Assembly: GCA_964356375.1 (NCBI GenBank)
Contig: CAYHGT010000001.1
Span: 9,221-73,220, forward strand
Reading direction: 5' to 3'
DNA length: 64,000 bases
From: an uncultured Candidatus Saccharibacteria bacterium
GTDB lineage: Bacteria > Patescibacteriota > Minisyncoccia > UBA6257 > GWB1-50-10
Position 1 is the stretch's first letter. The number at the start of each line of letters is the position of its first letter. Both the position numbers and the translations under genes were made by a program. The notes below the pieces were generated by a model. It made no database searches, was not told where the DNA came from, and worked only from the letters and a program-made list of their open reading frames with translations. Shown piece by piece: positions 2,007 to 61,190 of the stretch.

Positions 2007-2062
2007 TACGGTATACGGTATACGGTATACGGTATACGGTATATGGTATACTGTATACAGTA
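2007..2062. repeat. Tandem heptanucleotide repeat (TACGGTA)x5 followed by three degenerate units (TATGGTA, TACTGTA, TACAGTA), 52 bp upstream of the major pilin start
   Basis: Counted directly: eight contiguous 7-bp units at 2007-2062. The unit contains the palindrome GTATAC. Confidence 0.9.
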
Positions 2063-2113: not shown

Positions 2114-2686
2114 ATGAATAATTTAAAGAAAGGATTTACACTTATTGAATTGCTTATCGTTATCGCAATTCTCGCAATCTTGTCAGTTGCAGTTGTGTTG
2201 GTTTTGAATCCTGCGGAACTTATCAAACAGGCCCGTGATTCTACCCGCATCTCCGACCTGTCAGCAATCAATAGCGCAATCGCATTGTATTTGGTGGATG
2301 TAGCTACCCCGTATTTTGGTAGTGCAACCACCGCGTGCGTGACTACGTCGACTGCTACATTTGCCACAACGACAACAGCGCTCAATCCATGGGCTTCTGG
2401 CGCCGCGCAGTTTGTGAATACGTCATCATCGGTAACTGGGGGCGGTTGGGTTACTGTTAATTTTGGAGCTATTTCTGCGGGCTCGCCAATTGCAAAGCTT
2501 CCTATTGACCCAGTGAACTCCGCGGCATATTGGTATGGTTACGCGTGTAACGGTTTGAACTACAAACTTGCAACCGTATTTGAAAGCACAAAGTATTCAA
2601 GTGCAACAACTGGATATATGAGAAATTCATATGACGGTGGCACGAGCAATGGTTTCTACGAAGTTGGTAACAGCCTTGTCCTCTAA
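2114..2686 (+). CDS. Type IV (major) pilin with a class III signal peptide
   Basis: N-terminus MNNLKKG|FTLIELLIVIAILAILSVAVV: G-1, F+1, E+5 prepilin cleavage/methylation motif. 190 aa, Ser/Thr-rich C-terminal half. Followed by a strong terminator. Confidence 0.8.
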   Translation: MNNLKKGFTLIELLIVIAILAILSVAVVLVLNPAELIKQARDSTRISDLSAINSAIALYLVDVATPYFGSATTACVTTSTATFATTTTALNPWASGAAQFVNTSSSVTGGGWVTVNFGAISAGSPIAKLPIDPVNSAAYWYGYACNGLNYKLATVFESTKYSSATTGYMRNSYDGGTSNGFYEVGNSLVL

Positions 2687-2715
2687 CTAGAGAATCAATT
2701 TAGCAGTTTTAAAAA

Positions 2716-2745
2716 CCCCCCCCGTTTCGAGGGGGATTTTTTTAT
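2716..2745 (+). terminator. Rho-independent terminator after the major pilin
   Basis: CCCCCCCGTTTCGAGGGGG hairpin followed by TTTTTTT. Confidence 0.75.
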
Positions 2746-2806
2746 GACGAGCTAGTAAGCGATAGTGTGCTAAAATGATTAAAGGAAAAGCGGTCATTTT
2801 TTATCA

Positions 2807-4522
2807 ATGATAAATCTACCCCCTGAACGACTTAGAGAATTGCTTTTGAAAGCGGGTATTACAACTCCCGATGTGTTTGCATCTATGTTGGATGAAGCAA
2901 AGCGCAAACAGCAGAATGTGAACGATGTGCTCATCTCACAAGGAATCATCAACAAGGAATACTTGCTGATACTTATCGCACAAAATCTCGGTGTGGAGCG
3001 TGTGAATCTTGGCGTGGTAAAGGTGGACGAGGTGGCACTCAATCTCATTCCAGAGGATGTGGCTCGCCGTAAAAAAATTATTGTATTTGGTAAAGAACTT
3101 GACGGGAAATATAAGGTTGCGATGGATGATCCAAGCGATTTGGAAACGATTGATTACTTGAATTTGAAACTTAGCGGGCAGGTGAAGCCGTACCTTGCAA
3201 CCGAAGAAGATTTGAATCGCGGATTCGTGCTTTATGGAGAAAGATTGACACAGGATTTCCAGCAGATTATTGAGACGAGTGTGCGTGAGTCACTTCGCTC
3301 AAAAGCGCGTGGCGATGCAGAGAAGGATGCGCAAGACCTTCCGATTGTCGCAATTGTGGACAATCTTCTCTCCTACGCAATTTCTTCACGCGCATCCGAT
3401 GCGCATTTTGAGGCGTTGGATGATGTGGTACTGGTTCGCTTTCGTATTGATGGCGTGTTACACGAAATAATCAGAATGCCGAAAGAAATTCAAGCAGCGG
3501 TCGTGGCGCGTATTAAAATTCTCTCAAACCTCCGCGTGGACGAACACACGCATCCACAAGATGGTCGTTTTCGTCACAAGATGGGGAGCACGGCGGTAGA
3601 CATCCGCGTATCTATTATTCCAACATTTTATGGCGAGAAGATTGTTATGCGTCTTTTGACCGCTGCGCAAAAACCGCTTTCGCTTGCGGACCTTGGTATT
3701 TATGAGGACGATATTAAATTGTTGGAAAACGCAATCAAGAAAACATACGGCATGGTGCTTGCTGCGGGTCCTACCGGTTCTGGTAAAACGACTACATTGT
3801 ATTCACTTTTGAATATGATGAATAAGCCGGATGTGAATATTATCACGATTGAAGACCCGATTGAATATGATATGCGGTATGTGAACCAGATGCAGGTGAA
3901 TGTAGCTGCTGGTATTACATTTGCATCCGGGCTTCGTTCTATCCTGCGCCAAGATCCAAATGTGATTATGGTGGGTGAAATCCGTGATGCGGAAACCGCG
4001 AACATTGCGGTGCAAGCGGCGCTCACGGGACACGTCGTGCTTTCAAGCTTGCACACGAACGATGCGCCGACCGCAATCCCGCGCTTTATTGATATGGGCG
4101 TACCTCCGTTTCTCGTGTCTGCGGTTTTGAATACCGTTATTGCACAACGTCTTGTGAGAAAAATTCACGTGGAGTGCATTGAATCATATGCCCCACCAAC
4201 CGCATTTCTTGGGGCAATTAAGCATGAGCTGGAGCAGAGCGGTATTGCAGAAGAAAGTGTGAAGGTTCCCAAAACATTTTATCGCGGGAGAGGGTGCGCG
4301 GCATGCGGGCATACTGGATACTTGGGACGACTTGGTATTTATGAGGTGTTAAATATTACGGAAGAGGTGCGTAAACTCATAATTAGCTCTGATTTTAACC
4401 TTGATACATTGCGCCATTTGGCGCGTAGCGAGGGAATGTCCACTATGTTTGAGGACGGTCTCCGCAAGGTTGAGCGTGGCGTTACTACAATTGAAGAGGT
4501 CCTACGCGTTATTAGGGAATAA
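2807..4522 (+). CDS. pilB: Type IV pilus assembly ATPase PilB (GspE family)
   Basis: 571 aa. N-terminal GspE_N-like region, Walker A GPTGSGKTT, Asp/His boxes, and a C-terminal tetracysteine (CIESY...CAACGHTGY). Confidence 0.9.
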   Translation: MINLPPERLRELLLKAGITTPDVFASMLDEAKRKQQNVNDVLISQGIINKEYLLILIAQNLGVERVNLGVVKVDEVALNLIPEDVARRKKIIVFGKELDGKYKVAMDDPSDLETIDYLNLKLSGQVKPYLATEEDLNRGFVLYGERLTQDFQQIIETSVRESLRSKARGDAEKDAQDLPIVAIVDNLLSYAISSRASDAHFEALDDVVLVRFRIDGVLHEIIRMPKEIQAAVVARIKILSNLRVDEHTHPQDGRFRHKMGSTAVDIRVSIIPTFYGEKIVMRLLTAAQKPLSLADLGIYEDDIKLLENAIKKTYGMVLAAGPTGSGKTTTLYSLLNMMNKPDVNIITIEDPIEYDMRYVNQMQVNVAAGITFASGLRSILRQDPNVIMVGEIRDAETANIAVQAALTGHVVLSSLHTNDAPTAIPRFIDMGVPPFLVSAVLNTVIAQRLVRKIHVECIESYAPPTAFLGAIKHELEQSGIAEESVKVPKTFYRGRGCAACGHTGYLGRLGIYEVLNITEEVRKLIISSDFNLDTLRHLARSEGMSTMFEDGLRKVERGVTTIEEVLRVIRE

Positions 4523-4574
4523 AGAGTTTGTCTAAAATTCGAAGCTGAAAGTGAACGAATTTTAGCTACAAAGT

Positions 4575-4680
4575 CTTTACCGAGCACTCAGCATCAAAAA
4601 ATGACATTTTTCGTCCGTTTTCAAGCACGAGCGATTTTTCAAATAATATGAACAGTCGCGTTGAGTGCTCGGTGCTTGAA
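4575..4680. promoter_or_regulatory. Conserved inverted-repeat element, copy 1, in the pilB-pilC intergenic region: CTTTACCGAGCACTCA ... TGAGTGCTCGGTGCTTGAAT
   Basis: Perfect 12-bp inverted repeat ACCGAGCACTCA (4579-4590) / TGAGTGCTCGGT (4663-4674) with a 72-nt spacer. The arms share CTTTACCGAGCAC and GTGCTCGGTGCTYGAWT with copy 2 at 8745-8855. Confidence 0.45.
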
Positions 4681-4736
4681 TGTATGCTAAAATTTATATG
4701 CATGAGTAATCGCAAAAAAATTTTAATACATTCAGC

Positions 4737-5936
4737 ATGAAATTTAGATACATTGCATCACAGGCGGATGGGCGAGTGGTAGAGGGCGACATTGACGTAC
4801 AAAATGTACAAGACGTTTTGTCGTTTTTGGCAAAAAATAATTTAAAGCCAGTCAGTGTAAAATCAAGCGAAGAAGAGAAAGGCGGACTTTTCAAGGGTTC
4901 CATTACGATTACCGACGAAATCTTCCTTACAAAGTATTTAGCGCTAATGCTCCGAATTGGTACGGGTCTCTTGGAGGCAATCAACATTCTTATTGCTGAT
5001 TTCAAAAAGCCCGCAATTCGCGACCTCCTTTTTGAGGTGCGCGCCACACTTGAACAGGGGCAGCCATTTTATTCAGCATTTGCAAAACATCCGAAGGTTT
5101 TTGATGCGGTCTATATAAACCTTGTGCGTGCGGGCGAAGAATCGGGAAATTTAGATAAAATACTCACCGACCTCACAGAGTCGCTTTCCAAGAAAAAAGA
5201 TTTGCAGGATACGGTGCGCGGCGCTTTGATCTATCCGATAATTCTCTTCATCGGTTCGTTCGGCATTCTCTTTTTTCTTGTAATGTTTGCGCTCCCGAAG
5301 GTCGCGAATGTGTTTATGGAGGGAGGGTTCAAAACGCCACCTTTTTCACAAGTAGTGTTTACAGTTGGATTATTTTTCAACAACTATGGATTTTATATTA
5401 TCGGATTTTTTGGACTGCTCGTGGTAACAGCAATCATTCTTCGCGCGCGAGTACCCCTGTTTAGAAAATTTTTGTCCAATGTTTTTGTGAACCTCCCACT
5501 TATAAGCGGAGTATTGAAAAAAATGGCGCTACAGCGATTTGCATCAACATTGGCCGCGCTTATAAAAGCTGGTATGCCACTTACGAGAGCGCTGGATATT
5601 ACAGCTGACGCGGTTGCGCACGCGGAATTACGCGATGCGCTTATAAACATTTCCAAAGAAGGTCTTGCAAAGGGACTCACAATCGGCGAGGCGTTTCGTC
5701 GCGAATCAGCATTCCCGTCCACCATCACAAATCTCGTGGCAATTTCAGAAAAAGCGGGACACTTGGACGAAGTGCTAACAACCGTGAGCGAATTTTATAC
5801 GAAGGAAATTGACGCATCGGTGAAAGAGCTTGTTTCCTTTTTGGAGCCGGCGCTCCTTGTCTTCATCGGTGCTATTGTTGCAGTAATTGCGCTCGCCATC
5901 ATTGTTCCTATTTATCAACTCACTACCCAATTCTAA
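4737..5936 (+). CDS. pilC: Type IV pilus inner-membrane platform protein PilC (GspF family)
   Basis: 399 aa. Two T2SSF-like repeats and three TM segments; downstream of pilB. Confidence 0.9.
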   Translation: MKFRYIASQADGRVVEGDIDVQNVQDVLSFLAKNNLKPVSVKSSEEEKGGLFKGSITITDEIFLTKYLALMLRIGTGLLEAINILIADFKKPAIRDLLFEVRATLEQGQPFYSAFAKHPKVFDAVYINLVRAGEESGNLDKILTDLTESLSKKKDLQDTVRGALIYPIILFIGSFGILFFLVMFALPKVANVFMEGGFKTPPFSQVVFTVGLFFNNYGFYIIGFFGLLVVTAIILRARVPLFRKFLSNVFVNLPLISGVLKKMALQRFASTLAALIKAGMPLTRALDITADAVAHAELRDALINISKEGLAKGLTIGEAFRRESAFPSTITNLVAISEKAGHLDEVLTTVSEFYTKEIDASVKELVSFLEPALLVFIGAIVAVIALAIIVPIYQLTTQF

Positions 5937-5970
5937 AGAATGGAATAATTGAATATTAAAGATTGAAGGA

Positions 5971-6382
5971 TTGAACATTATGAAGATAGAACGATTTGAA
6001 GAATTACCAATTTGGAAAGATGCGCGAATCATTTCTTCGGAAGTATATAAAAAAACAAGGTCATTTAAGGATTTTTCGTTGCGAGATCAGATGAGGAGAG
6101 CAGCCGTTTCCATTGTTTCAAACATTGCCGAAGGGTTTGAGCGTTGGTCAAATAAAGAATTTATTCAATTTCTCTATATTGCGAAAGGATCGGTCGGTGA
6201 ATTGCGTGCGCAATTGTATGTTGCATATGACGCTGAAATTTTTAAGTAACGAGCACTTGATTGCGATGATTAAGCAATGCGAAGAGATTTCGGGTGGAAT
6301 AAGTAAATTTGCTAATTATTTGAGAAAATCACCGATTATCAAGGAAAGATATAATACAAAAGCAAGCTTATTGAACAATTGA
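5971..6382 (+). pseudogene. Four-helix-bundle protein (23S rRNA intervening-sequence-protein family) interrupted by a 1-nt frameshift in a T5 run
   Basis: ORF 5971-6249 (...IAEGFERWSNKEFIQFLYIAKGSVGELRAQLYVAYDAEIFK*) continues in the +1 frame (LSNEHLIAMIKQCEEISGGISKFANYLRKS...). Removing one T from the T5 run at 6239-6243 gives a continuous protein of about 136 aa with family-typical motifs. Confidence 0.5.
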
Positions 6383-6403
6383 AAAATTAAATGATTTAAA
6401 ATT

Positions 6404-7531
6404 ATGAAAAAGAAATTATTCAATCCTTCAATTATTCAATCCTTCAATTTTCGGGGTGGTTTTACAATGCTTGAGCTTGTGATTGTGATAGCGATTACGG
6501 CAGTTCTTTCAACGGTAGGTTTTGTATCGCTTAGCGGGTATCGTGGAAAACAAAATCTTAATAAAACAATGGATGAGTTAGTTGCTGTAATTGTTGGTAC
6601 GCAAAAGCGCTCAATTTCACAGGACACGGGGAAACAATGGAACATAAGATTTTCAAATACCGCGAGCTCTGGAAGCCAATACATAATTTTTTCCGGCTCG
6701 GCATACAGCACGAGTTCAATAGATAGAATATATGGACTTGGACGCGGTGTGCAATTTGCAGAGCCATATTTAAATAGTGCATTTGATGCATTTTTTACGC
6801 CGATAACAGGAACACTCCCTTCAAAGAAAATCATCTCGCTCGTTACAGGTAAAAAAGACGGTCTGGTTGGCGATATTATTTTAAATACCGCGGGTCGCGT
6901 AATTACGCGACTTGAAAGCGGTCTTGTCGGATATTGGCATTTTGATGAAAATGCATCTTCAACGGCACACGATTCGGCGGGTATGGATAATGATGCAATT
7001 CTTTCCGATGGACCTGTGTGGAAGGAGCATAAAAATTGCAGAGAAGGAAATTGCCTAAGCTTTAAGGGCGGAAGCGACCAGGCGGCTACCGCGTCCATAG
7101 ATATCAACGGCAAGCCGGATTTTACAATCAGTGATTGGCAATATATCACAAGCTTATCCTCGGGTAGCTGGGTATTGAATTATACATTTGGAGAAACCTC
7201 ATTTTACTCATATCACGGCGGACAGTTTAGAGTTGTGGACGGGCCATTGGAGTGCCAAGATTCCGGATTCGGCTCAATATCTTCCAGCGAATATCTTAAT
7301 AAGTGGACACACACAGTGTTTGTAAAAACTGGCGATGTTATAAATGTATATGTTAATGGAGTGTTTCGCGCGTTCTGTGTTTCCAAAAACGGAGTGCTGG
7401 CTAATCCGATATTTAAAATAGGAAATATTTTTGTAGGAAGAAACATGATAGGCATTGTTGATGAGGTCCGTATCTACAACCGCGCCCTTTCTGCGACCGA
7501 GATTTTGAATATGTATAATGACTTTAAGTAA
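6404..7531 (+). CDS. Type IV pilin-like protein with a C-terminal LamG/concanavalin-A-like lectin domain (paralog 1)
   Basis: Prepilin signal MKKKLFNPSIIQSFNFRGG|FTMLELVIVIAI. C-terminal LVGYWHFDE...CREGNC...DEVRIYNRALSATEILNMY matches Laminin_G_3-type motifs. Confidence 0.8.
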   Translation: MKKKLFNPSIIQSFNFRGGFTMLELVIVIAITAVLSTVGFVSLSGYRGKQNLNKTMDELVAVIVGTQKRSISQDTGKQWNIRFSNTASSGSQYIIFSGSAYSTSSIDRIYGLGRGVQFAEPYLNSAFDAFFTPITGTLPSKKIISLVTGKKDGLVGDIILNTAGRVITRLESGLVGYWHFDENASSTAHDSAGMDNDAILSDGPVWKEHKNCREGNCLSFKGGSDQAATASIDINGKPDFTISDWQYITSLSSGSWVLNYTFGETSFYSYHGGQFRVVDGPLECQDSGFGSISSSEYLNKWTHTVFVKTGDVINVYVNGVFRAFCVSKNGVLANPIFKIGNIFVGRNMIGIVDEVRIYNRALSATEILNMYNDFK

Positions 7532-7544
7532 GTTATTGAAAATT

Positions 7545-8693
7545 ATGAAAAAGAAATTATTCAATCCTTCAATTATTCAATCCTTCAATTTTCGGGGTGG
7601 TTTTACAATGCTTGAGCTTGTGATTGTGATTGCTATCATGGCTGTTCTTTCTACGGTCGGATTTGTATCGCTTAGCGGGTTTCGTGGTAAACAAAATCTT
7701 AAGAAAACCACGGACGAACTGGTGGCGGCAATCGTGGGAACGCAGAAACGCTCAATCTCACAAGATGCGGGAAGTAGGTGGAATGTACGCTTTTCAAATA
7801 CCACAAGTTCAGGAAGTCAATATATTGTGTTTTCGGGTACGAGTTATGCGACAAGCGCGATTGATAAAATATACGGCCTGAATCGCAATATTCAGTTTTC
7901 AGAACCATATTCCGGCAGTACATCTAATGCGTTTTTTGCTCCATTTACGGGCACGCTCCCCTCAAAAAAAATAATTTCAATGGTAACAGGTCGGCAGGAC
8001 GGATTTGTGGGGGACATTATTATGAATACAGCGGGGCTCGTGACTGGGCGCAATGAGAGTGGTCTTGTGGGATATTGGCATTTGGATGAAAACACATCCA
8101 CAACTGCGTATGACGCGTCTGGTATGGGGAATACTGGCGCTCTTGTGGGCACTTCTACGTGGCAGACGGGAATGAGTTGCGTATCAGGAAGTTGCTTGAG
8201 TTTTAATGGAAGTGGACAATATATAGATTCCGGGGCGAATTCCATTTTGGGTACTAAGCCTTTTACACTCACTGTGTGGATTAATACAAACAGTGTCGCG
8301 GGTTATAGTGGAGCAGTTTCAATTGGAACATCTGCGAGTGGTCAATCAGCATATATCGGAACCGTTGCGGTTGCACAGGTTGGCACGAGCAACTCTATTG
8401 GTGGTGGCTTCTATGGCGCAAATTATGGTTCGGGTATTACCACCACAGGTCAATGGGTTCACGTTGCCATGACATTTGCGGGCGGGTCAAATGGGGCTGC
8501 GATAATTTATGTAAATGGGCAAGTTCTTGTAAATACTACATACACACCGAATTTAGGAAGCGCGGTGAAAAGAATTGGCAGAATCGGGACCGACTCTACG
8601 TACGACTTTAACGGTTCAATTGATGAAGCTCGCATTTACAACCGCGCGCTTTCCGCGACTGAGATTTTGAATATGTATAATGACCTCAAATAA
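7545..8693 (+). CDS. Type IV pilin-like protein with a C-terminal LamG-like domain (paralog 2, tandem duplicate)
   Basis: The track ORF starts at 7518, but the in-frame ATG at 7545 reproduces the identical leader MKKKLFNPSIIQSFNFRGGFTMLELVIVIAI. The 93 bp 7539-7631 are identical to 6397-6489. C-terminus LVGYWHLDE...CVSGSC...DEARIYNRALSATEILNMY. Confidence 0.8.
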   Translation: MKKKLFNPSIIQSFNFRGGFTMLELVIVIAIMAVLSTVGFVSLSGFRGKQNLKKTTDELVAAIVGTQKRSISQDAGSRWNVRFSNTTSSGSQYIVFSGTSYATSAIDKIYGLNRNIQFSEPYSGSTSNAFFAPFTGTLPSKKIISMVTGRQDGFVGDIIMNTAGLVTGRNESGLVGYWHLDENTSTTAYDASGMGNTGALVGTSTWQTGMSCVSGSCLSFNGSGQYIDSGANSILGTKPFTLTVWINTNSVAGYSGAVSIGTSASGQSAYIGTVAVAQVGTSNSIGGGFYGANYGSGITTTGQWVHVAMTFAGGSNGAAIIYVNGQVLVNTTYTPNLGSAVKRIGRIGTDSTYDFNGSIDEARIYNRALSATEILNMYNDLK

Positions 8694-8744
8694 AGGCTTG
8701 GTGTAAATTTGTAAGATGAAATCGCGACAAATTTACGAACCAAA

Positions 8745-8855
8745 CTTTACCGAGCACATAAATTAACACGCAAAGCATTAATCAATTCTCTTATTTATTT
8801 CCGATGAAAAAGAAAAATTATAAACCAAAGTTTTCAATTTATGTGCTCGGTGCTC
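8745..8855. promoter_or_regulatory. Conserved inverted-repeat element, copy 2, spanning the promoter, RBS, start codon and first leader codons of the third pilin-LamG gene
   Basis: Perfect 15-bp inverted repeat ACCGAGCACATAAAT (8749-8763) / ATTTATGTGCTCGGT (8837-8851). The start codon at 8804 lies inside the loop. The flanks CTTTACCGAGCAC and GTGCTCGGTGCTCGATT match copy 1. Confidence 0.45.
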
Positions 8856-10168
8856 GATTCTTTAGCCACGCGCTTCGCGCGTGGAAAGAATCGGCAGGCC
8901 AGTCCCTCGTTGAAATTATTATCGGCCTCGCAATTGGCGCAATTTTGATAGGTGCGTCAGCGCTTGCAATCGCAGCGATGTTGAATTCAAACGTGACGAC
9001 ACAAAAATGGAAGGCGGCAACCGTGCTCTCACAAAGCTTATTAGATAATGCGCGTGCATACGGCTCTGTAAATTGGCAGAATTTGTACGGGCTTACAAAA
9101 ACGTCTAGTACACAATATTTTTTAAACGCTTCAGGAACCACATATAACGTAATTCAGGGGAAGGAGGGAATGGTTGATAATGATGTGACAAACGGCTTAG
9201 TGGGAGAGTGGAAATTTGATGAGGATGCGGGGACGACCAGCACGCTAACGTATGATGCGTCTGGCAATGGCAACAATGGAACACTTGTGGGTAGTCCTAT
9301 TAGAGCAACGTCTACATGTAAAATAGGAAATTGTTTGAAGTTTAATGGTGCGGACAATTATGTGAGCGTCACTAACTCCGCTACGGTAAAAAGCATTTCT
9401 ACTACTGGCACGATTGCGACATGGATTAATTTAACGGTTGCGCCAACAAGCACCAACCTGCAATTGATTGCCGATGTGGATGGCACAGCCAGTTGTACTG
9501 CGAGAGGTATGATATTTTATATTTCAGCTACGCAATTTAAATTTCAGTATGGTAGCGGTGGTGCTTGTCAGAATGCGAGTTCGGTTACCGTGCCAGCCAC
9601 GAATCAATGGTTTCATATAGTTGCGACGTGGGATGGTCTCGCTGGCGCCAAGATGTATGTGAATGGAACATCCGAGGGCAATAATGTTGCGGTGTCAAAT
9701 GTCAGCATTGCGCAAGCGTCCACTTATATTGCCAGTCAGGCGGGTACCACAAGTTTTATAAACGGTCTCGTTGACGATCTTCGTATCTACAATCGCGCGC
9801 TTTCGGCTGACGAAGTGAAACAACTCTACAACGCCAATATTTTCACGCGATATTTCTATGTGGAAAATACGTGTCGCACAAACGATGCATCAAGCTCCAT
9901 TTCCGGTGTTGCTTCCTGCGCGGGAGGTTCGGCTGACGACCCATCAACGCAGAAAGTAAGCGCGGTCTCGCAGTGGGCAGTCCTCGCTGGCACAAATCAG
10001 CTTTCTCTCGCTGATTATATAACGCGATGGAGAAACACAATTTTTCAGCAGAATGACTGGTCTGGTGGCGCAAGCGCAACGGGCACGTATACGAGTCCCA
10101 CAAACCTTTTTTCAACGTCGTCTAACGCAAACACAGCAGGCAAGTCAATTCGCATTCAAGGCCTGTAA
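8804..10168 (+). CDS. Type IV pilin-like protein with a LamG-like domain and an extra C-terminal region (paralog 3)
   Basis: Long leader then ESAG|QSLVEIIIGLAIGAIL (G-1, E+5). LVGEWKFDE...CKIGNC...DDLRIYNRALSADEVKQLY. 454 aa. Confidence 0.75.
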   Translation: MKKKNYKPKFSIYVLGARFFSHALRAWKESAGQSLVEIIIGLAIGAILIGASALAIAAMLNSNVTTQKWKAATVLSQSLLDNARAYGSVNWQNLYGLTKTSSTQYFLNASGTTYNVIQGKEGMVDNDVTNGLVGEWKFDEDAGTTSTLTYDASGNGNNGTLVGSPIRATSTCKIGNCLKFNGADNYVSVTNSATVKSISTTGTIATWINLTVAPTSTNLQLIADVDGTASCTARGMIFYISATQFKFQYGSGGACQNASSVTVPATNQWFHIVATWDGLAGAKMYVNGTSEGNNVAVSNVSIAQASTYIASQAGTTSFINGLVDDLRIYNRALSADEVKQLYNANIFTRYFYVENTCRTNDASSSISGVASCAGGSADDPSTQKVSAVSQWAVLAGTNQLSLADYITRWRNTIFQQNDWSGGASATGTYTSPTNLFSTSSNANTAGKSIRIQGL

Positions 10169-10278
10169 TAACCAGCGACTAACGACAAACAACTAGAAAC
10201 GGACGGACCTTTTTCCATTTTTTTCCTGTCGTGGGTTGTTAGTTGTGAGTTGTAGGTTGTGAGTTATAATAAAAGCAT

Positions 10279-10719
10279 ATGGTTGAAGTAAAGAATTTCA
10301 GTGAATCGCTTGATACTCATTTGGAGCGCCTAGGTGCACATATTAACGTAGAACGCGAAAGGCCAAGTTCCGAGCTTTCATCTCCGCGCGAGATTGTAAA
10401 AAACTCACTCAAAAATTATGCAGAAGACCTTACTCAGATTCGGAACGTGAGCGTGGCTGAGGCACAGGCTGGTCTTGTGTCGCAAGCAACGCCAGCGTCC
10501 GATATGTCTGGGTCCTTGCCAAACTACCTTTTTAACAGCGACATTTCTGAGGGTATTAAGCAGGAGGTAAAAGAGCTTGTGGATTTTGTATTTTCAGACA
10601 ATCTTGAATCCGCAATAAAAGAGTCGCGCAAACGTTCTGCGTTCGTGCAGGACGCATTTCACGATGCGCTGGTTGATAAGTTGATGCCAGAACTCGTAAA
10701 ACGAGGAATTTTCAAATAA
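10279..10719 (+). CDS. Hypothetical protein (146 aa), upstream partner of the large ATPase
   Basis: Intact ORF with good coding periodicity and no recognisable motif. It is separated from the next gene by 8 bp. Confidence 0.45.
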   Translation: MVEVKNFSESLDTHLERLGAHINVERERPSSELSSPREIVKNSLKNYAEDLTQIRNVSVAEAQAGLVSQATPASDMSGSLPNYLFNSDISEGIKQEVKELVDFVFSDNLESAIKESRKRSAFVQDAFHDALVDKLMPELVKRGIFK

Positions 10720-10727
10720 CCCACATA

Positions 10728-13079
10728 ATGGTTTATTTAATAATCTTTTTAACATTCTTTTTCACCTTTCTTTTTGGCATCCTCGCATTTTTTGTGTGGC
10801 GAAAAAAGATACGCGAATTATTGAAGAATAGTTTGGAAATGAAGCTTTTCCTTGTGCGTATGCCACACATGAATAAGGAGGGTAAGGATTTGAAAAAAGA
10901 AATAAGTATTTCCGAACAATTTTTGAGTGCCTTAGCATCGCTCGGGGGTCCCTTCGCGCTTGAAGTTGCCGTCCCACACATTGGCGAGGAAATCCATTTT
11001 TATGTGGCGGTTCCCGGCAAATCACGCGAATCAATCGTGCGTCAGATTCACGCATTGTGGGCTGATGCGAGTGTGAGCGAGGTAGACGACTACAATATTT
11101 TTAACTACACGGGCGTGGTCGCGGGTATTTCTATTCGCCAAAAAGAGAAATCAATCCTTCCAATTCGCACGTATCAGGAATTGGAGGCGGATTCGTTTTT
11201 GCCGGTACTTGGTGGATTTTCAAAAATAAACGAGGTGGGTGAGGGTTGCGCGATCCAGTATGTGGCGCGTCCCGCATCTTCCAAGGAGAAAAAAAATATT
11301 CAATATGCGGTAGACCTCTTGAAAAAAGGCGTAAAAGCAAAGGACGTATTTGGCGGTACATGGCTTGTGCTTAAAGATTTTGATGAAGCGCTTGGTGCGG
11401 GAAAGAAAAAAGAAACGGAAGAAAAAATAGTAGACGAGGGGGCCTTGGAAGCATTGAAGGCAAAAGTGGGAAAACAACTTTTTGATGTGAATGTGCGTGT
11501 AATTGCGTCAGCCCCGAGTCAGTTTCAAGCAGACGCTATTATTGATGGAGTAATTGCTGGCTTTTCGCAATTCTCGGCACCAGAGCGCAATGAATTTAAA
11601 ATTGTGAAGCCGAGAAAACTTCAGGATTTTATACATTCATTTTCATACCGCGACTTCAATGAGTCCGAAGCGATGTTAATGAATACGGAAGAATTTGCGA
11701 GTATCTTTCATTTTCCGACGCCGTTTACAGATGTGCCGAGAATTAAGTATCTGAAATCGCGCGAGGCGCCCCCGCCATCCGACCTACCAAAGGAGGGAAT
11801 CTTGCTTGGCGAAAGTATTTATAGAGGAACTCATATTCCTGTGCGGCTTACGCGCGAGGACAGGCGAAGACACTTGTATGTAATCGGTCAGACGGGTACT
11901 GGTAAGTCCGTATTTATCAATAATTTGTCGGGTCAGGATGTCGTTAATGGCGAAGGAGTATGTGTAATTGACCCGAATGGAGATCTTTTTGAAGATGTAC
12001 TGAGTCGTATTCCCAAAAACAGATTAAATGATGTGATTGTGTTTGACCCGAGTGATGTCTTGCATCCCTTGGGCATCAATATGCTGGAATATGATCTAAA
12101 CTTCCCGGAGCAGAAAACATTCCTCATAAATGAACTGATGCAGATTTTTGACACGCTCTATGACCTGAAGACCACGGGTGGTCCAATGTTTGAGCAGTAT
12201 ACGCGCAACGCTCTTCTTCTATTGATGGATGACCCCACAAACGGATTTACTATTCTTGAAATTCCGCGTGTGATGTCGGATGTAGAATTTCGAGAAGCGC
12301 TTCTTGCAAAATGCAAAAACGCAATTGCGAAAGATTTTTGGGAGAAGGAGGCGAATAAGGCGGGAGGGGATGCGTCACTTGCAAACATGGTTCCGTATAT
12401 TACGTCCAAGTTCAATACATTTATTGCAAATGATTTTATGCGCCCCATCGTCGCGCAATCAAAAAGTTCCATTGATTTTAGAAAAGTGATGGATGAGGGC
12501 AAGATTCTTTTGGTGAACCTCTCAAAGGGAAAGCTTGGCGAATTAAATGCGTCGTTACTCGGCATGATAATTGTGGGTAAGCTTACGATTGCCGCGTTCT
12601 CGCGCGCGGATATGGCACCCGAAAAGCGCAGGGATTTCTATCTCTATATGGATGAGTTCCAGAATTTCACAACACCAAGTATCTCCACGATTCTTTCTGA
12701 GGCAAGAAAATACCGACTATGTATTATTGCCGCACATCAGTTTATTGCGCAGTTAAAGGAGCCGATTCGTAATGCGATATTTGGCAATGTGGGCTCGCTT
12801 GTGGCATTTCGCGTAGGTGCTGATGACGCGGAGTTTTTGGAAAAGCAATTTACGCCCGTATTTTCCGAAAGCGATCTTATTAACATTGATAATTTAAATG
12901 CACACGTAAAAATTGCCATTAATAATCAGGTTTATCCGGCGTTCAATATGTTTGTACCGTTTCCGCCAAAGGGCGATAGAACCACTGTGGACGAGGCACA
13001 CGCGCTTTCCAGGCAGAAATATGGGCGCCCACGCGAAGACGTTGAGGCCGAAATTTATAAGCGAATAAAGGCGGTCTAA
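10728..13079 (+). CDS. Membrane-anchored P-loop ATPase of the FtsK/HerA/TraG-VirD4 (T4SS coupling-protein-like, DNA-translocase) superfamily
   Basis: 783 aa. N-terminal TM helix (LIIFLTFFFTFLFGILAFFVW). Walker A HLYVIGQTGTGKSVF. Walker-B-like FYLYMDEFQNF (the DEF motif seen in FtsK/TraG families). Downstream RLCIIAAHQ. Family assignment is from motifs only. Confidence 0.55.
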   Translation: MVYLIIFLTFFFTFLFGILAFFVWRKKIRELLKNSLEMKLFLVRMPHMNKEGKDLKKEISISEQFLSALASLGGPFALEVAVPHIGEEIHFYVAVPGKSRESIVRQIHALWADASVSEVDDYNIFNYTGVVAGISIRQKEKSILPIRTYQELEADSFLPVLGGFSKINEVGEGCAIQYVARPASSKEKKNIQYAVDLLKKGVKAKDVFGGTWLVLKDFDEALGAGKKKETEEKIVDEGALEALKAKVGKQLFDVNVRVIASAPSQFQADAIIDGVIAGFSQFSAPERNEFKIVKPRKLQDFIHSFSYRDFNESEAMLMNTEEFASIFHFPTPFTDVPRIKYLKSREAPPPSDLPKEGILLGESIYRGTHIPVRLTREDRRRHLYVIGQTGTGKSVFINNLSGQDVVNGEGVCVIDPNGDLFEDVLSRIPKNRLNDVIVFDPSDVLHPLGINMLEYDLNFPEQKTFLINELMQIFDTLYDLKTTGGPMFEQYTRNALLLLMDDPTNGFTILEIPRVMSDVEFREALLAKCKNAIAKDFWEKEANKAGGDASLANMVPYITSKFNTFIANDFMRPIVAQSKSSIDFRKVMDEGKILLVNLSKGKLGELNASLLGMIIVGKLTIAAFSRADMAPEKRRDFYLYMDEFQNFTTPSISTILSEARKYRLCIIAAHQFIAQLKEPIRNAIFGNVGSLVAFRVGADDAEFLEKQFTPVFSESDLINIDNLNAHVKIAINNQVYPAFNMFVPFPPKGDRTTVDEAHALSRQKYGRPREDVEAEIYKRIKAV

Positions 13080-13086
13080 TCCATTC

Positions 13087-13830
13087 ATGTCAAAACCGTA
13101 TCTATCTCTCATTATCCCTGTTCGCGACGAAGAGAAGACCGTGTTGCAGACACTTCTTTCCGTGGACTACGCGCTTTCTATTTCCGAATTTTCTTCGGAA
13201 GTAATTGTTGTGGATGATGGTTCACGCGATACCACGGCGCATATCGTACGGCAGTATGAAAAAGTTCTAAAACCTCTGAAATGCATTGAGGGTAAGAGTA
13301 AGAGGGGATTTGGTTCCGCAATTAAGGACGGTATGGCAGATGCAAATGGGAACGTGCAAATGATTCTCTATCCATCGTGCGTTGGATTTTTAGATAAACG
13401 GGAAGAAATTTTAACCGCATTTAAGGACGGGTATGATATTGTAGTTGGTTCGCGGAATATCGCCGTAGAACGGCTCTCGCTCTCATGTTCCGTGAAGCGC
13501 GCATTCAGAAAACTTGGCAATCGGCTTTTGTGTGGCAAATCGCTTTTCGGGGTATCCGATGTACGGTTTGGCGCGGTCTGTATGACGGAAGAAATGGCGG
13601 AGTGGCTCTCCTCGTTCTCGGAACTCACAAATAGCAACAACATTTTCTTTGAAATGTATATGCTTACTACCGCAAATGGTGGGCGAATCAAGGAGATTGC
13701 ATATGGAGAAAGCGATGAATGTGTCTGTGGAAAAGGCGCGTGGAACTGGATTCGCGCATATTTTCACTCGCTTAAGGTGAGGCATTTGGCAAAGAAGAAA
13801 AAGAAGCACGAAGGGCTTGTGTTGGAGTAA
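13087..13830 (+). CDS. Family 2 glycosyltransferase (dolichyl-phosphate-sugar-transferase-like)
   Basis: LSLIIPVRDEE...VIVVDDGSRD: GT-A fold DXD context. 247 aa. Confidence 0.7.
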   Translation: MSKPYLSLIIPVRDEEKTVLQTLLSVDYALSISEFSSEVIVVDDGSRDTTAHIVRQYEKVLKPLKCIEGKSKRGFGSAIKDGMADANGNVQMILYPSCVGFLDKREEILTAFKDGYDIVVGSRNIAVERLSLSCSVKRAFRKLGNRLLCGKSLFGVSDVRFGAVCMTEEMAEWLSSFSELTNSNNIFFEMYMLTTANGGRIKEIAYGESDECVCGKGAWNWIRAYFHSLKVRHLAKKKKKHEGLVLE

Positions 13831-25375: not shown

Positions 25376-25528
25376 TGAATCCCGTTAGAGTTTTACACAT
25401 TAACAACAAACAAGAGGGATGAATCCCGTTAGAAAATTACAAACAATGTTTTTAAGTAAATACAAAGTTAATAACGCTTATATTATTAGTCGAAAAACAA
25501 AGACCTTAATTTTCTAACGGGATGAATC
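25376..25528 (+). promoter_or_regulatory. Repeat/hairpin element between rpsF and ssb: two direct copies of ATGAATCCCGTTAGA and one inverted copy that contains the ssb start codon
   Basis: Copy a at 25376-25397, copy b at 25419-25440, inverted copy c at 25507-25528. b and c can pair over 20/22 bp with a 66-nt loop. The ssb ATG (25522) lies inside arm c. Confidence 0.45.
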
Positions 25529-30510: not shown

Positions 30511-30536
30511 AAAAGCGCTTTCGCGCTTTTTTTATG
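30511..30536. terminator. Bidirectional rho-independent terminator (AAAAAGCGC-TTTC-GCGCTTTTTTT)
   Basis: The perfect GCGC hairpin is flanked by an A-run and a T-run. It would terminate the minus-strand tRNA-Leu transcript and plus-strand readthrough. Confidence 0.65.
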
Positions 30537-30619
30537 TGCCTGAGGTGGGACTCGAACCCACACAGGGATTACCTACACGATTTTGAGTCGTGCGCGTATA
30601 CCAGTTCCGCCACTCAGGC
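30537..30619 (-). tRNA. tRNA-Leu (anticodon CAA), type II with a long variable arm
   Basis: Revcomp GCCTGAG TG GCGG..CGC G CACGA CTCAAAA TCGTG (variable arm AGG..CCT) GTGGG TTCGAGT CCCAC CTCAGGC A. All stems pair. CCA is not encoded. Confidence 0.85.
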
Positions 30620-30633
30620 TTTGTTTTCAAACA

Positions 30634-30879
30634 TCATTTTACTACAAACTCTGCCTTTATCCAGTCTTTGCCAACCCCCGATTTCAAGTATTTTTCTCGT
30701 TTTCTTGCTTCGGGTCTAGTTGTAAACGTCTCAGCGCACAGAAGCTCAAATGGTCGATAGGGGGCGGTGGTATGCCCCTTGCCTTTCTGGTGTTCGTTCA
30801 CTCTTCGCTCCAGATTGTTTGTAAGCCCAACGTAGATATAATTCTTTGTCGTGCTTTTTAGTACGTACACGAAAAACAT
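30634..30879 (-). CDS. Small GIY-YIG nuclease-family protein
   Basis: 81 aa: MFFVYVLKSTTKNYIYVGLTNNLERRVNEHQKG...REKYLK, a GIY-YIG core (YVYVL...YIGxT...R...H...E). Confidence 0.7.
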   Translation of the reverse strand: MFFVYVLKSTTKNYIYVGLTNNLERRVNEHQKGKGHTTAPYRPFELLCAETFTTRPEARKREKYLKSGVGKDWIKAEFVVK

Positions 30880-30891
30880 ATTTTAATATGA

Positions 30892-30960
30892 CGTGCGCGC
30901 CTACCTTCGGTAGGCAGGTATACCAGTGGAGTTTATCCGCCGCAGGCGGGCCACTCAGGC
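30892..30960 (-). other. Partial tRNA-Leu-like fragment (acceptor 5' strand + D-arm + anticodon-stem 5' strand) with two inserted GC hairpins, abutting the GIY-YIG start
   Basis: Revcomp GCCTGAGTGGC[CCGCCTGCGGCGGATAAACTCCA]CTGGTATAC[CTGCCTACCGAAGGTAGG]CGCGCACG. Its parts align to GCCTGAGTGGC-GGAA-CTGGTATAC-GCGCACG of the intact tRNA 270 bp away. Confidence 0.5.
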
Positions 30961-61159: not shown

Positions 61160-61190
61160 AACACCCCCGCGTTGCGGGGGTGTTTTGTAT
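61160..61190 (+). terminator. Strong rho-independent terminator after rplL
   Basis: AACACCCCCGC-GTT-GCGGGGGTGTT followed by TTGTATTT. Confidence 0.8.

What the first reader, a model, noticed from the sequence alone, without database searches (positions are those of the whole stretch)
4575..4680. Two-copy conserved inverted-repeat element with compensatory arm changes, in front of pilC and of the third pilin-LamG gene
Copy 1 is CTTTACCGAGCAC-TCA ...72 nt... TGA-GTGCTCGGTGCTTGAAT. Copy 2 (8745-8855) is CTTTACCGAGCAC-ATAAAT ...67 nt... ATTTAT-GTGCTCGGTGCTCGATT. The outer constant parts are near-identical between copies. The inner variable bases differ, yet remain perfectly complementary within each copy. 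Compensatory change that preserves pairing argues for a selected hairpin or a dimeric-protein operator rather than chance. Both copies sit at the 5' side of pilus genes. This suggests a dedicated regulatory motif of the pilus regulon, acting by RNA attenuation or translational control, or as a repressor site.
Basis: seen in the sequence. Interest (0 to 1): 0.72.

Follow-up and report, generated by a model that had tools for sequence, protein, structure and literature searches.

The report
Hairpin slot of a mini-nuclease element
The two inverted repeats are real and truly complementary, but they are not a pilus regulator: they are gene-less copies of a palindromic element found between many housekeeping genes of Patescibacteria, and in other genomes its loop carries a tiny GIY-YIG nuclease gene.

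Summary
Both copies exist with perfectly paired arms of 12 and 16 nt, each 71 nt apart. The interpretation as a pilus-regulon motif is not supported.

Each repeat is the middle hairpin (H2) of a three-hairpin module. The module fills the whole spacer from the upstream stop codon to the next start codon. Exact-arm scans found 186 copies (about 140 non-redundant). Apart from three chance hits, the genome-collection copies are all in Patescibacteria records. The downstream genes include ribosomal proteins, EF-G, GroEL, DnaJ and SecY, and only 23 of 134 loci adjoin a pilus gene.

Complementarity covaries in the inner stem and in the "constant" core. However, G·U pairs are no commoner than A·C mismatches (37 vs 43 in about 8,200 pairs), which is DNA-like rather than RNA-like.

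In 11 of 11 loci holding a 74-76-residue GIY-YIG nuclease gene, the gene sits exactly in the H2 loop. Loops range from 6 nt to about 235 nt. Gene-less interiors are shared between different loci of one genome, sometimes inverted.

Best reading: a homing-type palindromic selfish element. Both window copies lack the nuclease gene. Copy 1 carries a 30-codon uORF overlapping the pilC start, and copy 2 supplies the start codon and leader of a pilin. A host RNA role for the module is not excluded.

The parts
4520..4579 (+). Copy 1, hairpin H1. It starts on the pilB stop codon TAA (4520-4522); TAAAGA pairs with TCTTTA (4574-4579), and the inner stem is CTAAAATTCG/CGAATTTTAG.
   Evidence: Folds. It aligns with copy 2 and with about 130 relatives with compensatory changes. 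It is 92% identical to the orthologous locus L058.
4579..4590 (+). Copy 1, H2 left arm ACCGAGCAC+TCA.
   Evidence: It is 100% conserved in ortholog L058.
4591..4661 (+). Copy 1, H2 interior (71 nt; 77 nt between the constant 9-mers). It holds no nuclease gene.
   Evidence: It is unrelated in sequence to the interior of ortholog L058, although the flanks are about 85-94% identical. It shows no homology to the GIY-YIG gene. The only promoter-like match, 4618-4647, scores 9/12, which is at chance level.
4662..4673 (+). Copy 1, H2 right arm TGA+GTGCTCGGT.
4648..4740 (+). Copy 1, 30-codon uORF (MNSRVECSVLECMLKFICMSNRKKILIHSA). It starts in the H2 loop, reads through the right arm and H3, and its TGA overlaps the pilC ATG (ATGA).
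   Evidence: Family-wide, such ORFs that end within 20 nt of the main ATG are enriched: 65 of 132 copies, against 48.2 +/- 3.6 with permuted interiors and 24 with reverse-complemented interiors.
4674..4736 (+). Copy 1, hairpin H3 (GC T TGAATGTATGC ... ATACATTCA GC). It ends directly at the pilC start codon, 4737.
   Evidence: Fold. It is 94% identical to L058. The H3 alignment of relatives shows a covarying outer stem.
8691..8749 (+). Copy 2, hairpin H1. It starts on the stop codon (8691-8693) of the second pilin-LamG gene; the inner stem is GTAAATTTG/CAAATTTAC.
8749..8764 (+). Copy 2, H2 left arm ACCGAGCAC+ATAAATT.
8765..8835 (+). Copy 2, H2 interior. It contains the start codon (8804) of the third pilin-LamG gene.
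   Evidence: The interior is homologous to that of L013 (score 19.5 against a null 99th percentile of 11). The ORF 8804-10168 is identical to NCBI protein MEK7089417.1.
8836..8851 (+). Copy 2, H2 right arm AATTTAT+GTGCTCGGT. It is translated as ..S-I-Y-V-L-G.. of the pilin leader.
   Evidence: The same in-frame arrangement is seen in L013 and L042..IYVLGARFFSHxLRxWKxSAG, followed by the mature end QSL(V/I)E or FTLTE.
8852..8895 (+). Copy 2, hairpin H3 (GC TCGATTCTTT AGCCACGCG CTT CGCGTGG AAAGAATCG GC), lying inside the leader-peptide coding region. The Gly(-1) codon is at 8897-8899.
   Evidence: (pair I12). A compensatory change in L042 (TCGATTTTTT/AAAAAATCG) keeps the stem.

Best explanation
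What the repeat is. The inverted repeat is the stem of the middle hairpin (H2) of a three-hairpin palindromic module, about 210-250 nt long, that is repeated many times in Patescibacteria genomes. The module sits between co-directional genes and fills the spacer from stop codon to start codon.

Shown:
- The H2 stem is a cargo slot. In 11 independent loci it encloses, codon-tight, a 74-76-residue GIY-YIG nuclease gene that consists of the catalytic domain only.
- In most other copies, including both window copies, the loop is a gene-less stretch of 70-99 nt. A few copies have a loop of only 6 nt.
- Gene-less interiors are shared between unrelated loci of one genome, sometimes in inverted orientation.
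- The stems evolve with strict Watson-Crick symmetry, not with RNA-style G·U tolerance.

Inferred mechanism:
- An uninterrupted H2 is a near-perfect palindrome of about 30 bp in duplex DNA.
- The small nuclease, acting as a dimer or as a structure-specific enzyme, cuts this palindrome or the cruciform it can extrude.
- Repair from a filled copy then installs the cargo at the centre, so the two half-sites become the inverted arms.
- Because the arms are symmetric, cargo can be copied in either orientation.
- Cargo that has lost the gene persists because it keeps the site split and the stem intact.

In this window. Both copies are gene-less passengers in the pilus operon, with side effects on expression. 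In copy 1 a loop-initiated uORF ends on the pilC start codon, which would couple translation. In copy 2 the loop, right arm and H3 have become the start codon and leader peptide of a pilin.
For: 1. Family size and distribution.
- A scan of one genome per species gave 56 loci. All are in Patescibacteria-type MAGs except three chance hits in GC-rich coding DNA, and up to 5 exact copies were seen per genome.
- In total there are 186 exact copies, about 140 non-redundant.
- There are none in 2.9 million viral contigs.

2. Not pilus-specific.

3. Link to the nuclease.
- A tblastn search of all fetched DNA found 8 close family members, and all 8 are flanked by the arms.
- Loci fetched by protein identity alone also carry the arms: L177, L178, L179, L181, L183, L191, L199, L200 and L202. 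The ATG abuts CACATAAnn and the stop codon abuts nnTTATGTG.
- L012 and L164 were found as by-catch.
- The protein matches Pfam GIY-YIG at E about 1e-11. The family has 876 clusters, nearly all 74-76 residues long.
- L191 has arms plus gene but no H1 or H3, after murB, so this unit can occur on its own.

4. Size series of the loop in by-catch copies, which were not selected for loop size: 6 nt (L027, L046), 26-29 nt, 45 nt, 70-99 nt (the commonest), 119 nt (L121, the N-terminal half of the gene, inverted) and about 235 nt. Gene remnants occur in L049 (E = 1e-6) and L029.

5. Copying between loci.
- The interiors of L003, L036 and L050, and those of L002, L039 and L056, are about 90% identical at different loci of one genome.
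- The two copies in L054 share H1 and H3 but have different interiors.
- Of 110 similar pairs, 10 are inverted relative to the flanks.

6. DNA-type symmetry. Isolated G·U against A·C mismatches number 15/20 in H1, 14/11 in H2 and 8/12 in H3, among about 8,200 Watson-Crick pairs.

7. Covariation of both arms.
Against: - No nuclease of this family lies in the 64 kb window. The only GIY-YIG gene there (30634-30879) belongs to a different subfamily and has no arms.
- Most gene-less interiors, including both window copies, show no detectable homology to the nuclease gene at the protein or DNA level. They also have a narrow size range rather than a broad decay spectrum. They may therefore not derive from the gene.
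- No empty/filled or forward/inverted polymorphism was found at one and the same locus.
- No target-site duplication is seen.
- The module is strictly co-oriented with the flanking genes, abuts the stop and start codons, and H1, the arms and H3 are 92-100% conserved between orthologs while the loop drifts. This fits a host function as well.
- H2 stems of quite different sequence follow the same H1. The hairpin platform is therefore broader than the nuclease-associated subfamily.
- A 75-residue GIY-YIG domain has no DNA-binding domain, and its specificity is untested.
Confidence: 0.55

Rival explanations
1. Host cis-acting intercistronic RNA module. H1, H2 and H3 fold in the polycistronic mRNA and serve the host. 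They could mark processing sites, for example for RNase III on the long H2 duplex, leaving H1 as a 3' protective hairpin and H3 as a 5' protective hairpin. They could also bring the stop and start codons together so that translation of the downstream gene stays coupled, helped by a loop-initiated uORF. The GIY-YIG genes would then be secondary parasites that exploit a conserved, repeated hairpin whose loop tolerates insertions.
For: - The module is always co-oriented with the flanking genes. It begins on the stop codon and ends on the start codon, with every nucleotide in a helix.
- H1, the arms and H3 are 92-100% conserved between orthologs whose synonymous sites are near saturation, while the loop is free to drift.
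- The interior is strand-asymmetric: A 40% against T 31%, GGAG 17 against 1, GTCG 35 against 11.
- Loop-initiated ORFs that stay open through H3 to within 20 nt of the main ATG are enriched: 65 of 132, against 48.2 +/- 3.6.
- The same H1 platform carries H2 stems of many different sequences with perfect compensation.
- The module lies in operons for ribosomal proteins, elongation factors and chaperones.
Against: - G·U pairs make up about 0.45% of stem positions and are no commoner than A·C mismatches. This is unlike known structured RNAs.
- There is no Rfam match even at E = 10.
- Interiors are exchanged between loci and inverted.
- The uORF is present in only about half of the copies.
- The arms-plus-gene unit occurs without H1 and H3 (L191), and H1 occurs without H2 and H3 (L039:1409).
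- No transcript data are available.
Confidence: 0.3
2. Invertible DNA switch (inverton). The arms are recombinase sites and the interior is a promoter or start-codon segment that flips to phase-vary pilus genes and other genes.
For: - Homologous interiors occur in opposite orientation relative to conserved flanks in several pairs of loci: L007 and L045, L021 and L051, L016 against L040 and L048, L045b and L049, and L149 against L158.
- The interior is A/T-rich, with -10-like boxes near its 3' end in some copies.
- Copy 1 has one weak promoter-like match.
Against: - All inverted pairs are at different loci. None of 37 same-locus pairs differs in orientation.
- By my inspection of the sequences, the arms have no internal dyad symmetry of the kind seen in recombinase core sites.
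- The segment, at 71-90 bp, is very short for site-specific inversion (general knowledge).
- No recombinase gene was looked for or seen next to the element.
- The promoter scan is at chance level: 10 matches against 10.2 expected.
- Many targets are essential ribosomal genes.
Confidence: 0.04
3. Pilus-regulon-specific hairpin or operator: an attenuator or repressor site dedicated to pilus genes.
For: - Both window copies lie in the pilus gene cluster.
- Pilus junctions (pilB/pilT/pilC, pilins) are over-represented among hosts, at 23 of 134 loci.
Against: - 111 of 134 loci have no pilus gene on either side. Downstream genes include L17, S10, S14, S8, L6, EF-G, GroEL, DnaJ and SecY.
- The orthologous pilB-pilC spacer of L013 lacks the constant arms.
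- There is no terminator-like U-tract.
Confidence: 0.02

Closest known systems
Free-standing and intron-encoded GIY-YIG homing endonucleases (phage T4 Seg proteins, I-TevI) and the homing cycle of gain, decay and loss
   Same: - A GIY-YIG nuclease gene is wedged between conserved, co-directional genes.
- Full, truncated and gene-less forms coexist with uninterrupted sites.
- The cargo is flanked by the two halves of what would be a continuous site.
- The PHROG matches are annotated 'homing endonuclease'.
   Different: - The protein is only 74-76 residues, the catalytic domain alone, with no DNA-binding domain. Its nearest solved relatives are UPF0213 BH0048 and SLX1, at weak E-values of 0.03-0.35.
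- The site is a palindrome or hairpin repeated many times per genome, rather than a unique gene sequence.
- Cleavage and homing are untested.
REP/BIME and REPIN-RAYT systems (repetitive extragenic palindromes mobilised by a single-copy nuclease)
   Same: - Short hairpin-forming intergenic repeats occur in many copies.
- The conserved arms stand about 71 nt apart, as in the REPINs of Pseudomonas fluorescens SBW25 (Bertels and Rainey 2011, PMC3116915; the 71-nt spacing is from my memory of that paper).
- Non-autonomous units are associated with a small nuclease gene.
   Different: - The nuclease here is GIY-YIG, not an HUH/Y1 RAYT, and it is encoded inside the hairpin loop.
- Each arm is not itself a palindrome.
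- The elements are strictly co-oriented with genes, abut stop and start codons, and share the same arms across many lineages of a superphylum rather than being species-specific.
Bacterial MITEs that are co-transcribed with genes (Neisseria Correia elements, ERIC, Rickettsia palindromic elements)
   Same: - Units of about 100-150 bp flanked by inverted repeats lie between or within genes.
- They fold into long hairpins in mRNA.
- They can donate coding sequence, as Rickettsia palindromic elements do. Here copy 2 supplies a pilin start codon and leader.
   Different: - No target-site duplication and no IS-type transposase are seen.
- The interior is hypervariable while the arms are near-invariant.
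- The element is embedded in a larger three-hairpin module.
rRNA intervening sequences of CPR bacteria that carry small ORFs
   Same: - An ORF sits in the loop of an extended stem.
- GIY-YIG ORFs have been reported in non-intron insertions in CPR rRNA genes, mostly at the tops or bases of stem-loops (PMC11270868).
- The window also holds a 23S_rRNA_IVP ORF.
   Different: - The element here lies between protein-coding genes, not in rRNA.
- Whether the rRNA insertions carry the same arms was not checked.
Integron attC sites
   Same: They are imperfect palindromes with conserved outer parts and variable inner parts, and they function as folded DNA.
   Different: - The RYYYAAC / GTTRRRY core sites are absent.
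- The cargo lies inside the hairpin, not between successive sites.
- No integrase is known for this element.

Membership tests
   23 of 134 non-redundant loci adjoin a pilus gene. Other downstream genes are L17, S10, S14, S8, L6, EF-G, GroEL, DnaJ and SecY.
Structured regulatory RNA (riboswitch, attenuator or leader) | Match to a curated RNA family | tested here: not met
   The window reaches no family's gathering score except for two tRNAs. Across 4300-9200 only chance-level hits appear at E up to 10.
Structured regulatory RNA (riboswitch, attenuator or leader) | Covarying base pairs | tested here: met
   The inner stem is Watson-Crick in 71-99% of copies, against 36-57% with permuted partners (95% at one near-invariant position). 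Core triplet variants always have the exact complement on the other arm. H1 and H3 stems covary.
Structured regulatory RNA (riboswitch, attenuator or leader) | RNA-type substitution pattern (G·U tolerated far more than A·C) | tested here: not met
   37 G·U against 43 A·C isolated mismatches in about 8,200 pairs (smaller set).
Intrinsic terminator / attenuator | G+C-rich hairpin followed by a U-tract | tested here: not met
   No terminator-like site at either copy. H1 is followed by TTACC, not by a run of T.
Inverton (invertible promoter) | Inverted repeats flanking a short segment | tested here: met
Inverton (invertible promoter) | Both orientations at one and the same locus | tested here: not met
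   0 of 37 same-locus pairs differ in orientation. This is a weak test, because most pairs are near-identical assemblies.
Inverton (invertible promoter) | Promoter inside the segment | tested here: inconclusive
   There is one 9/12 match in copy 1 and none in copy 2. The regional count equals the shuffle expectation.
Inverton (invertible promoter) | Cognate recombinase | not tested
   Only the ORFs in 2114-13830, plus those at 5980-6249, 10279-10719 and 30634-30879, were scanned against Pfam. None is a recombinase.
GIY-YIG homing-endonuclease element | Nuclease ORF with a GIY-YIG domain inside the element | tested here: met
   Met in 11 related loci. NOT met in the two window copies, which have no such ORF.
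GIY-YIG homing-endonuclease element | Uninterrupted (empty) target sites exist | tested here: met
   L027:1025 and L046:1610 have the same stem with a 6-nt loop inside the same H1/H3 context.
GIY-YIG homing-endonuclease element | Presence/absence polymorphism at one locus | tested here: not met
   No pair with similar distal flanks differs as empty against filled. One pair has loops of 83 and 72 nt.
GIY-YIG homing-endonuclease element | The nuclease cleaves the empty site and spares the filled one | not testable with these tools
   This needs biochemistry.
MITE / REP-like palindromic repeat | Many intergenic copies per genome with hairpin-forming ends | tested here: met
   Up to 5 exact copies per draft genome. 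There are 130 distinct H1-like starts in 1.24 Mb of fetched DNA, a sample biased towards the element.
MITE / REP-like palindromic repeat | Near-identical copies at unrelated loci of one genome | tested here: met
   The trios L003/L036/L050 and L002/L039/L056.
MITE / REP-like palindromic repeat | Target-site duplication, or a RAYT or IS transposase | tested here: not met
   No direct repeat flanks the arms (..CCTT|ACC...GGT|GCTC..). The associated gene is GIY-YIG.
Integron attC | R''/R' core sites RYYYAAC / GTTRRRY | tested here: not met
   The arms read TTACCGAGCAC / GTGCTCGGTGC.

The most novel reading that the evidence does not exclude
Patescibacteria harbour a previously undescribed class of autonomous palindromic mobile element. 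A 75-residue GIY-YIG nuclease, consisting of the catalytic domain only, is encoded in the loop of its own hairpin or palindrome target. Gene-less derivatives have colonised a large share of intra-operon junctions, including those of ribosomal-protein, elongation-factor, chaperone and pilus operons. They fold so compactly between stop and start codons that operon expression survives. They are occasionally exapted, here as the start codon and leader peptide of a type IV pilin.
Probability: 0.4. Interest if true: 0.8.

Novelty: new variant of a known kind. Interest (0 to 1): 0.66.

Why it matters
- It would add a new, very compact type of selfish element (hairpin plus mini-nuclease) to the catalogue. 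It would also explain a conspicuous, apparently unannotated repeat that occupies many intergenic junctions in the streamlined genomes of Patescibacteria, where every non-coding base is unexpected.
- It gives a concrete, testable substrate for a large orphan protein family: at least 876 clusters of GIY-YIG proteins of about 75 residues.
- It warns annotators that start codons and leader peptides, such as that of the third pilin here, can be supplied by such elements.
- It offers a natural design for insulating inserts inside operons.
- For the pilus locus itself, the practical message is that the repeat is not evidence of a pilus regulon.

Tried and rejected
- Rfam: no family matched.
- Promoter and terminator scans: at chance level.
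- Pilin-only context: only 3 of 59 copies run into a pilin.
- Large-scale dyad symmetry, with H3 as the reverse complement of H1: mean local score 7.5 against 6.3 for shuffles, so rejected.
- IS608-like ends (TTAC ... TCAA): rejected. TTAC varies (TAAC, TCAC), and TCAA is part of the covarying H3 stem.
- Hypermutation of the interior: rejected. The window and L058 differ at about half of the third codon positions (my count on the alignment), so a neutral loop is expected to look unrelated.
- Gene-less interiors as internal-deletion derivatives of the nuclease gene. A protein HMM gave 1 hit at E < 0.01 among 1,116 frames. DNA ends score like shuffles. This is not supported in general; there are only three clear remnants.
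- RNAalifold on the gappy MAFFT alignment of H1 gave no consensus, so covariation was counted on anchored positions instead.
- Same-locus orientation or occupancy polymorphism: none found.
- Identical nuclease proteins on many contigs (P0079, P0064) turned out to be the same locus in many samples, not multiple insertions.
- Viral contigs: no copy.
- Literature searches: no description of this element. The nearest statements are GIY-YIG ORFs in non-intron insertions of CPR rRNA genes (PMC11270868) and GIY-YIG genes among predicted transfers from Patescibacteria (PMC12455944).
Full report
OBSERVATION

Both copies are present as described. Copy 1 has arms 4579-4590 and 4662-4673 (ACCGAGCACTCA / TGAGTGCTCGGT). 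Copy 2 has arms 8749-8764 and 8836-8851 (ACCGAGCACATAAATT / AATTTATGTGCTCGGT). Each pair is perfectly complementary and 71 nt apart. The constant 12-mers occur exactly only at these two places in the window. Folding energies are far below those of shuffles: z = -7.2 and -3.8 for the hairpin with short flanks.

- A hairpin (H1) starts on the stop codon of the upstream gene and has its own compensatory differences between the copies.
- The constant CTTTA is the 3' strand of H1 and pairs with the stop codon TAAAG.
- A third hairpin (H3) runs from the right arm to the next start codon.
- The complete stop-to-start spacers fold as three abutting hairpins, with z = -7.4 and -8.5.

GENE CONTEXT IN THE WINDOW

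Pfam assignments come:
- 2807-4522: PilB-type ATPase
- 4737-5936: PilC (T2SSF)
- 6404-7531, 7518-8693 and 8804-10168: three pilin-LamG proteins

Copy 1 fills the pilB-pilC spacer. In copy 2 the start codon of the third pilin (8804) lies inside the loop, so the right arm and H3 are translated. The leader reads MKKKNYKPKFSIYVLGARFFSHALRAWKESAG and is followed by the mature end QSLVE. NCBI annotates the same ORF as MEK7089417.1, in a 'Patescibacteria group bacterium' MAG.

HOW WIDESPREAD IT IS

I scanned for TTACCGAGCAC-N65-95-GTGCTCGGTGC.
- The one-genome-per-species collection gave 56 loci. All are in Patescibacteria-type MAGs, labelled Saccharibacteria, Paceibacterota, Niyogi-, Jorgensen-, Colwell-, Harrison-, Portnoy-, Taga- or Brennerbacteria, except three chance hits in GC-rich coding DNA.
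- Together these give 186 exact copies, about 140 of them non-redundant.
- There are none in viral contigs.

Rfam has no matching family, and the literature searches found no description.

WHERE THE COPIES SIT

- Upstream genes end, usually in TAA, directly at H1.
- The commonest distance from the right arm to the downstream ATG is 61 nt.
- Downstream genes include ribosomal proteins L17, S10, S14, S8 and L6, EF-G, GroEL, DnaJ, SecY and PilT, all confirmed by Pfam.
- Only 23 of 134 non-redundant loci have a pilus gene on either side.

Pilus junctions are therefore recurrent hosts, but the element is not pilus-specific.

STRUCTURE AND ITS MODE OF EVOLUTION

Pairing is clearly maintained.
- The seven positions inside the constant 9-mer are Watson-Crick in 95, 98, 99, 97, 79, 76 and 71% of 141 non-redundant copies. 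With permuted partners the values are 44, 53, 95, 57, 36, 39 and 50%.
- The 'constant' core also covaries: ACC-GAG-CAC becomes ACC-CAG-, -CCG-, -CCC- or -CCT-CAC, each with the exact complement on the other arm. No such hairpin is found in shuffled sequence.
- Behind the same H1, other copies carry H2 stems of quite different sequence (ACCCCGCCC, ACCCAGCCC, ACCCCCACAC, ATCCCTCAC and others). These are always fully paired, and only the base TTACC...GGTGC is kept.
- H1 and H3 stems covary as well.

The substitution pattern, however, is not RNA-like. Isolated G·U-type and A·C-type mismatches number 15/20 in H1, 14/11 in H2 and 8/12 in H3, among about 8,200 Watson-Crick pairs (smaller set). A strand-specific RNA constraint should favour G·U strongly. 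The observed symmetry fits a constraint on duplex or foldback DNA, or frequent re-copying.

THE INTERIOR

- Between the window and the orthologous pilB-pilC spacer of L058, the coding flanks are about 85% identical, H1 92%, H3 94% and the arms 100%. The 77-nt interior is unrelated.
- About half of the third codon positions differ in the flanks (my count on the alignment). That is what a neutral loop should look like, so no hypermutation needs to be invoked.
- Within single genomes, interiors are shared at about 90% identity between different loci (L003/L036/L050; L002/L039/L056). Conversely, the two copies in L054 share H1 and H3 but not the interior.
- Of 110 pairs with similar interiors, 10 are inverted relative to the flanks.
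- All inverted pairs are at different loci. None of 37 same-locus pairs differs in orientation.
- The interior is strand-asymmetric: A 40% against T 31%, GGAG 17 against 1, GTCG 35 against 11.
- ATG-initiated ORFs that start in the loop and stay open through the right arm and H3 to within 20 nt of the main ATG occur in 65 of 132 copies. The figure is 48.2 +/- 3.6 with interiors permuted among copies and 24 with reverse-complemented interiors.
- Copy 1 has such a uORF (4648-4740), whose TGA overlaps the pilC ATG.
- In the largest interior family, the differences between members preserve a small peptide, roughly MKIFLNKNQSN..KFMCSVL.

THE NUCLEASE LINK

Scanning the flanks of fetched loci for the same stem with any loop size gave the following series:
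- 6 nt (L027:1025, L046:1610), in the normal H1/H3 context
- 26-29 nt
- 45 nt
- 70-99 nt, the commonest
- 119 nt
- about 235 nt

The 235-nt loops of L012 and L164 are filled exactly by a 72-75-codon ORF with a GIY-YIG domain. The 119-nt loop of L121 holds the N-terminal half of such a gene in inverted orientation.

The protein family has at least 876 clusters, almost all 74-76 residues long. The source names are mostly Patescibacteria, including Sungbacteria, Yanofskybacteria, Microgenomates and Parcubacteria.

I fetched loci by protein identity alone, that is, without reference to the arms. Every one has the arms, with the ATG next to CACATAAnn and the stop codon next to nnTTATGTG:
- L177, L178, L179, L181, L200 and L202 have arms ending in the constant CCGAGCAC core.
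- L183 has arms ACCCCTCAC/GTGAGGGGT.
- L199 has the ACCCAGCAC variant.
- L191 lies after murB and has no H1 or H3.

A tblastn search over all fetched DNA agrees. The 8 close homologues are all flanked by arms. More distant GIY-YIG genes, including the one in the window at 30634-30879, are not.

The closest solved relatives are the UPF0213 protein BH0048 and the structure-specific nuclease SLX1, at weak E-values. The PHROG matches are annotated as homing endonucleases.

A caveat applies. Apart from three remnants (L049, L029, L121), the gene-less interiors, including both window copies, show no detectable similarity to the nuclease gene. Their descent from it is therefore not shown.

INTERPRETATION

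Shown:
- The window repeats belong to a large family of three-hairpin intercistronic modules in Patescibacteria.
- The middle stem encloses a variable cargo.
- One cargo is a mini GIY-YIG nuclease gene.
- Cargo is exchanged between loci and can be inverted.
- The stems keep strict Watson-Crick symmetry.

Inferred:
- An uninterrupted H2 is a palindrome of about 30 bp that the nuclease cuts, as a dimer or as a cruciform- or hairpin-specific enzyme.
- Repair from a filled copy installs the cargo at the centre, which turns the two half-sites into inverted arms.
- The symmetry of the arms allows either orientation.
- Gene-less cargo persists because it keeps the site split while the stem stays intact.
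- The tight folding between stop and start codon, and the loop-initiated uORF, would keep the downstream gene expressed and so make the insert tolerable.

I give this selfish-element reading 0.55.

The main rival, at 0.30, is that the module is a host RNA device for processing, stability or translational coupling, and that the nuclease genes merely parasitise its loop. In its favour are the strict orientation, the exact abutment to stop and start codons, the strong conservation of H1, the arms and H3 between orthologs, and the many unrelated H2 stem sequences on the same platform. Against it are the lack of G·U usage, the exchange and inversion of interiors, and the fact that the parts occur separately.

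An inverton (0.04) and a pilus-specific regulator (0.02) are poorly supported.

FOR THE WINDOW ITSELF

Both copies lack the nuclease gene, and no nuclease of the arm-associated family lies within the 64 kb. Their likely present-day effects are local:
- Copy 1 would couple pilC translation to a 30-codon uORF.
- Copy 2 provides the start codon and about 30 leader residues of the third pilin. This arrangement is conserved in frame in L013 and L042, with a compensatory change that keeps the H3 stem inside the coding sequence.

LIMITS

- The collections were searched with exact arms and a fixed loop range, so the counts are biased towards this subfamily and loop size.
- There are no transcript or biochemical data.
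- No empty/filled polymorphism at a single locus was found.
- Taxon labels are those of the records.

Noticed in passing
window 5980-6249 (+): An 89-residue ORF between pilC and the first pilin-LamG gene matches Pfam 23S_rRNA_IVP (23S rRNA-intervening sequence protein) at E = 1e-28. It is another small gene of a type usually found inside rRNA stem-loop insertions, and here it sits in a pilus operon spacer.
   Followed up: partly
window 30634-30879 (-), tRNA-Leu(CAA) 30536-30619 (-), and 30890-30960: An 81-residue GIY-YIG gene of a different subfamily, without the arms, lies directly upstream of tRNA-Leu on the minus strand. It is preceded by a sequence that repeats parts of the tRNA 5' half (AAGCCTGAGTGGC..CTGGTATAC..GCGCGCACG), as if a mobile gene had been inserted at the tRNA.
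   Followed up: partly
window 2008-2056: A tandem heptamer repeat (CGGTATA, about 5 copies, then degenerate) lies just upstream of the small pilin gene at 2114-2686.
   Followed up: no
window 61189-61337, 59240-59369, 32144-32277, 25418-25528: There are four further long-range inverted repeats in intergenic DNA, with arms of 20-36 nt separated by 39-94 nt. Their arm sequences are unrelated to the finding. One precedes the tRNA at 61418 and one precedes an SSB-like ORF. They may be other palindromic element families in the same genome.
   Followed up: no
L012:3468-3533: A truncated copy. H1, the left arm and the first half of an interior (the same interior as in L012:5969) run straight into the start of a 96-residue ORF, with no right arm and no H3.
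   Followed up: partly
Interiors of L040, L048, L074, L087, L119, L124, L161 and L166 (and L016, inverted): The largest interior family encodes a small ORF (about MKIFLNKNQSN.IND(I/V)(T/V)LDNYH(I/V)KFMCSVL..). Differences between genomes are often synonymous, which suggests a conserved peptide that continues through the right arm and H3.
   Followed up: partly
L039:1409-1470: An H1 hairpin is followed directly by ..ATTGGCATG and the next gene, with no H2 and no H3. This shows that the parts of the module can occur separately.
   Followed up: no
L181:1501-3231: The arm-flanked GIY-YIG gene sits between a TraC-like gene and a TraG-like gene that itself carries an intein with a LAGLIDADG domain. 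That makes two different selfish nuclease elements side by side.
   Followed up: no
window 8843-8857: The right arm of copy 2 is a tandem heptamer (GTGCTCG GTGCTCG A), and copy 1 has GTGCTCG GTGCTTG A. The left arm could therefore pair in a second register shifted by 7 nt.
   Followed up: no
window 10728-13079 (+): A 783-residue TraG/VirD4-like coupling protein (TrwB_AAD_bind, T4SS-DNA_transf) lies directly downstream of the pilin genes.
   Followed up: no
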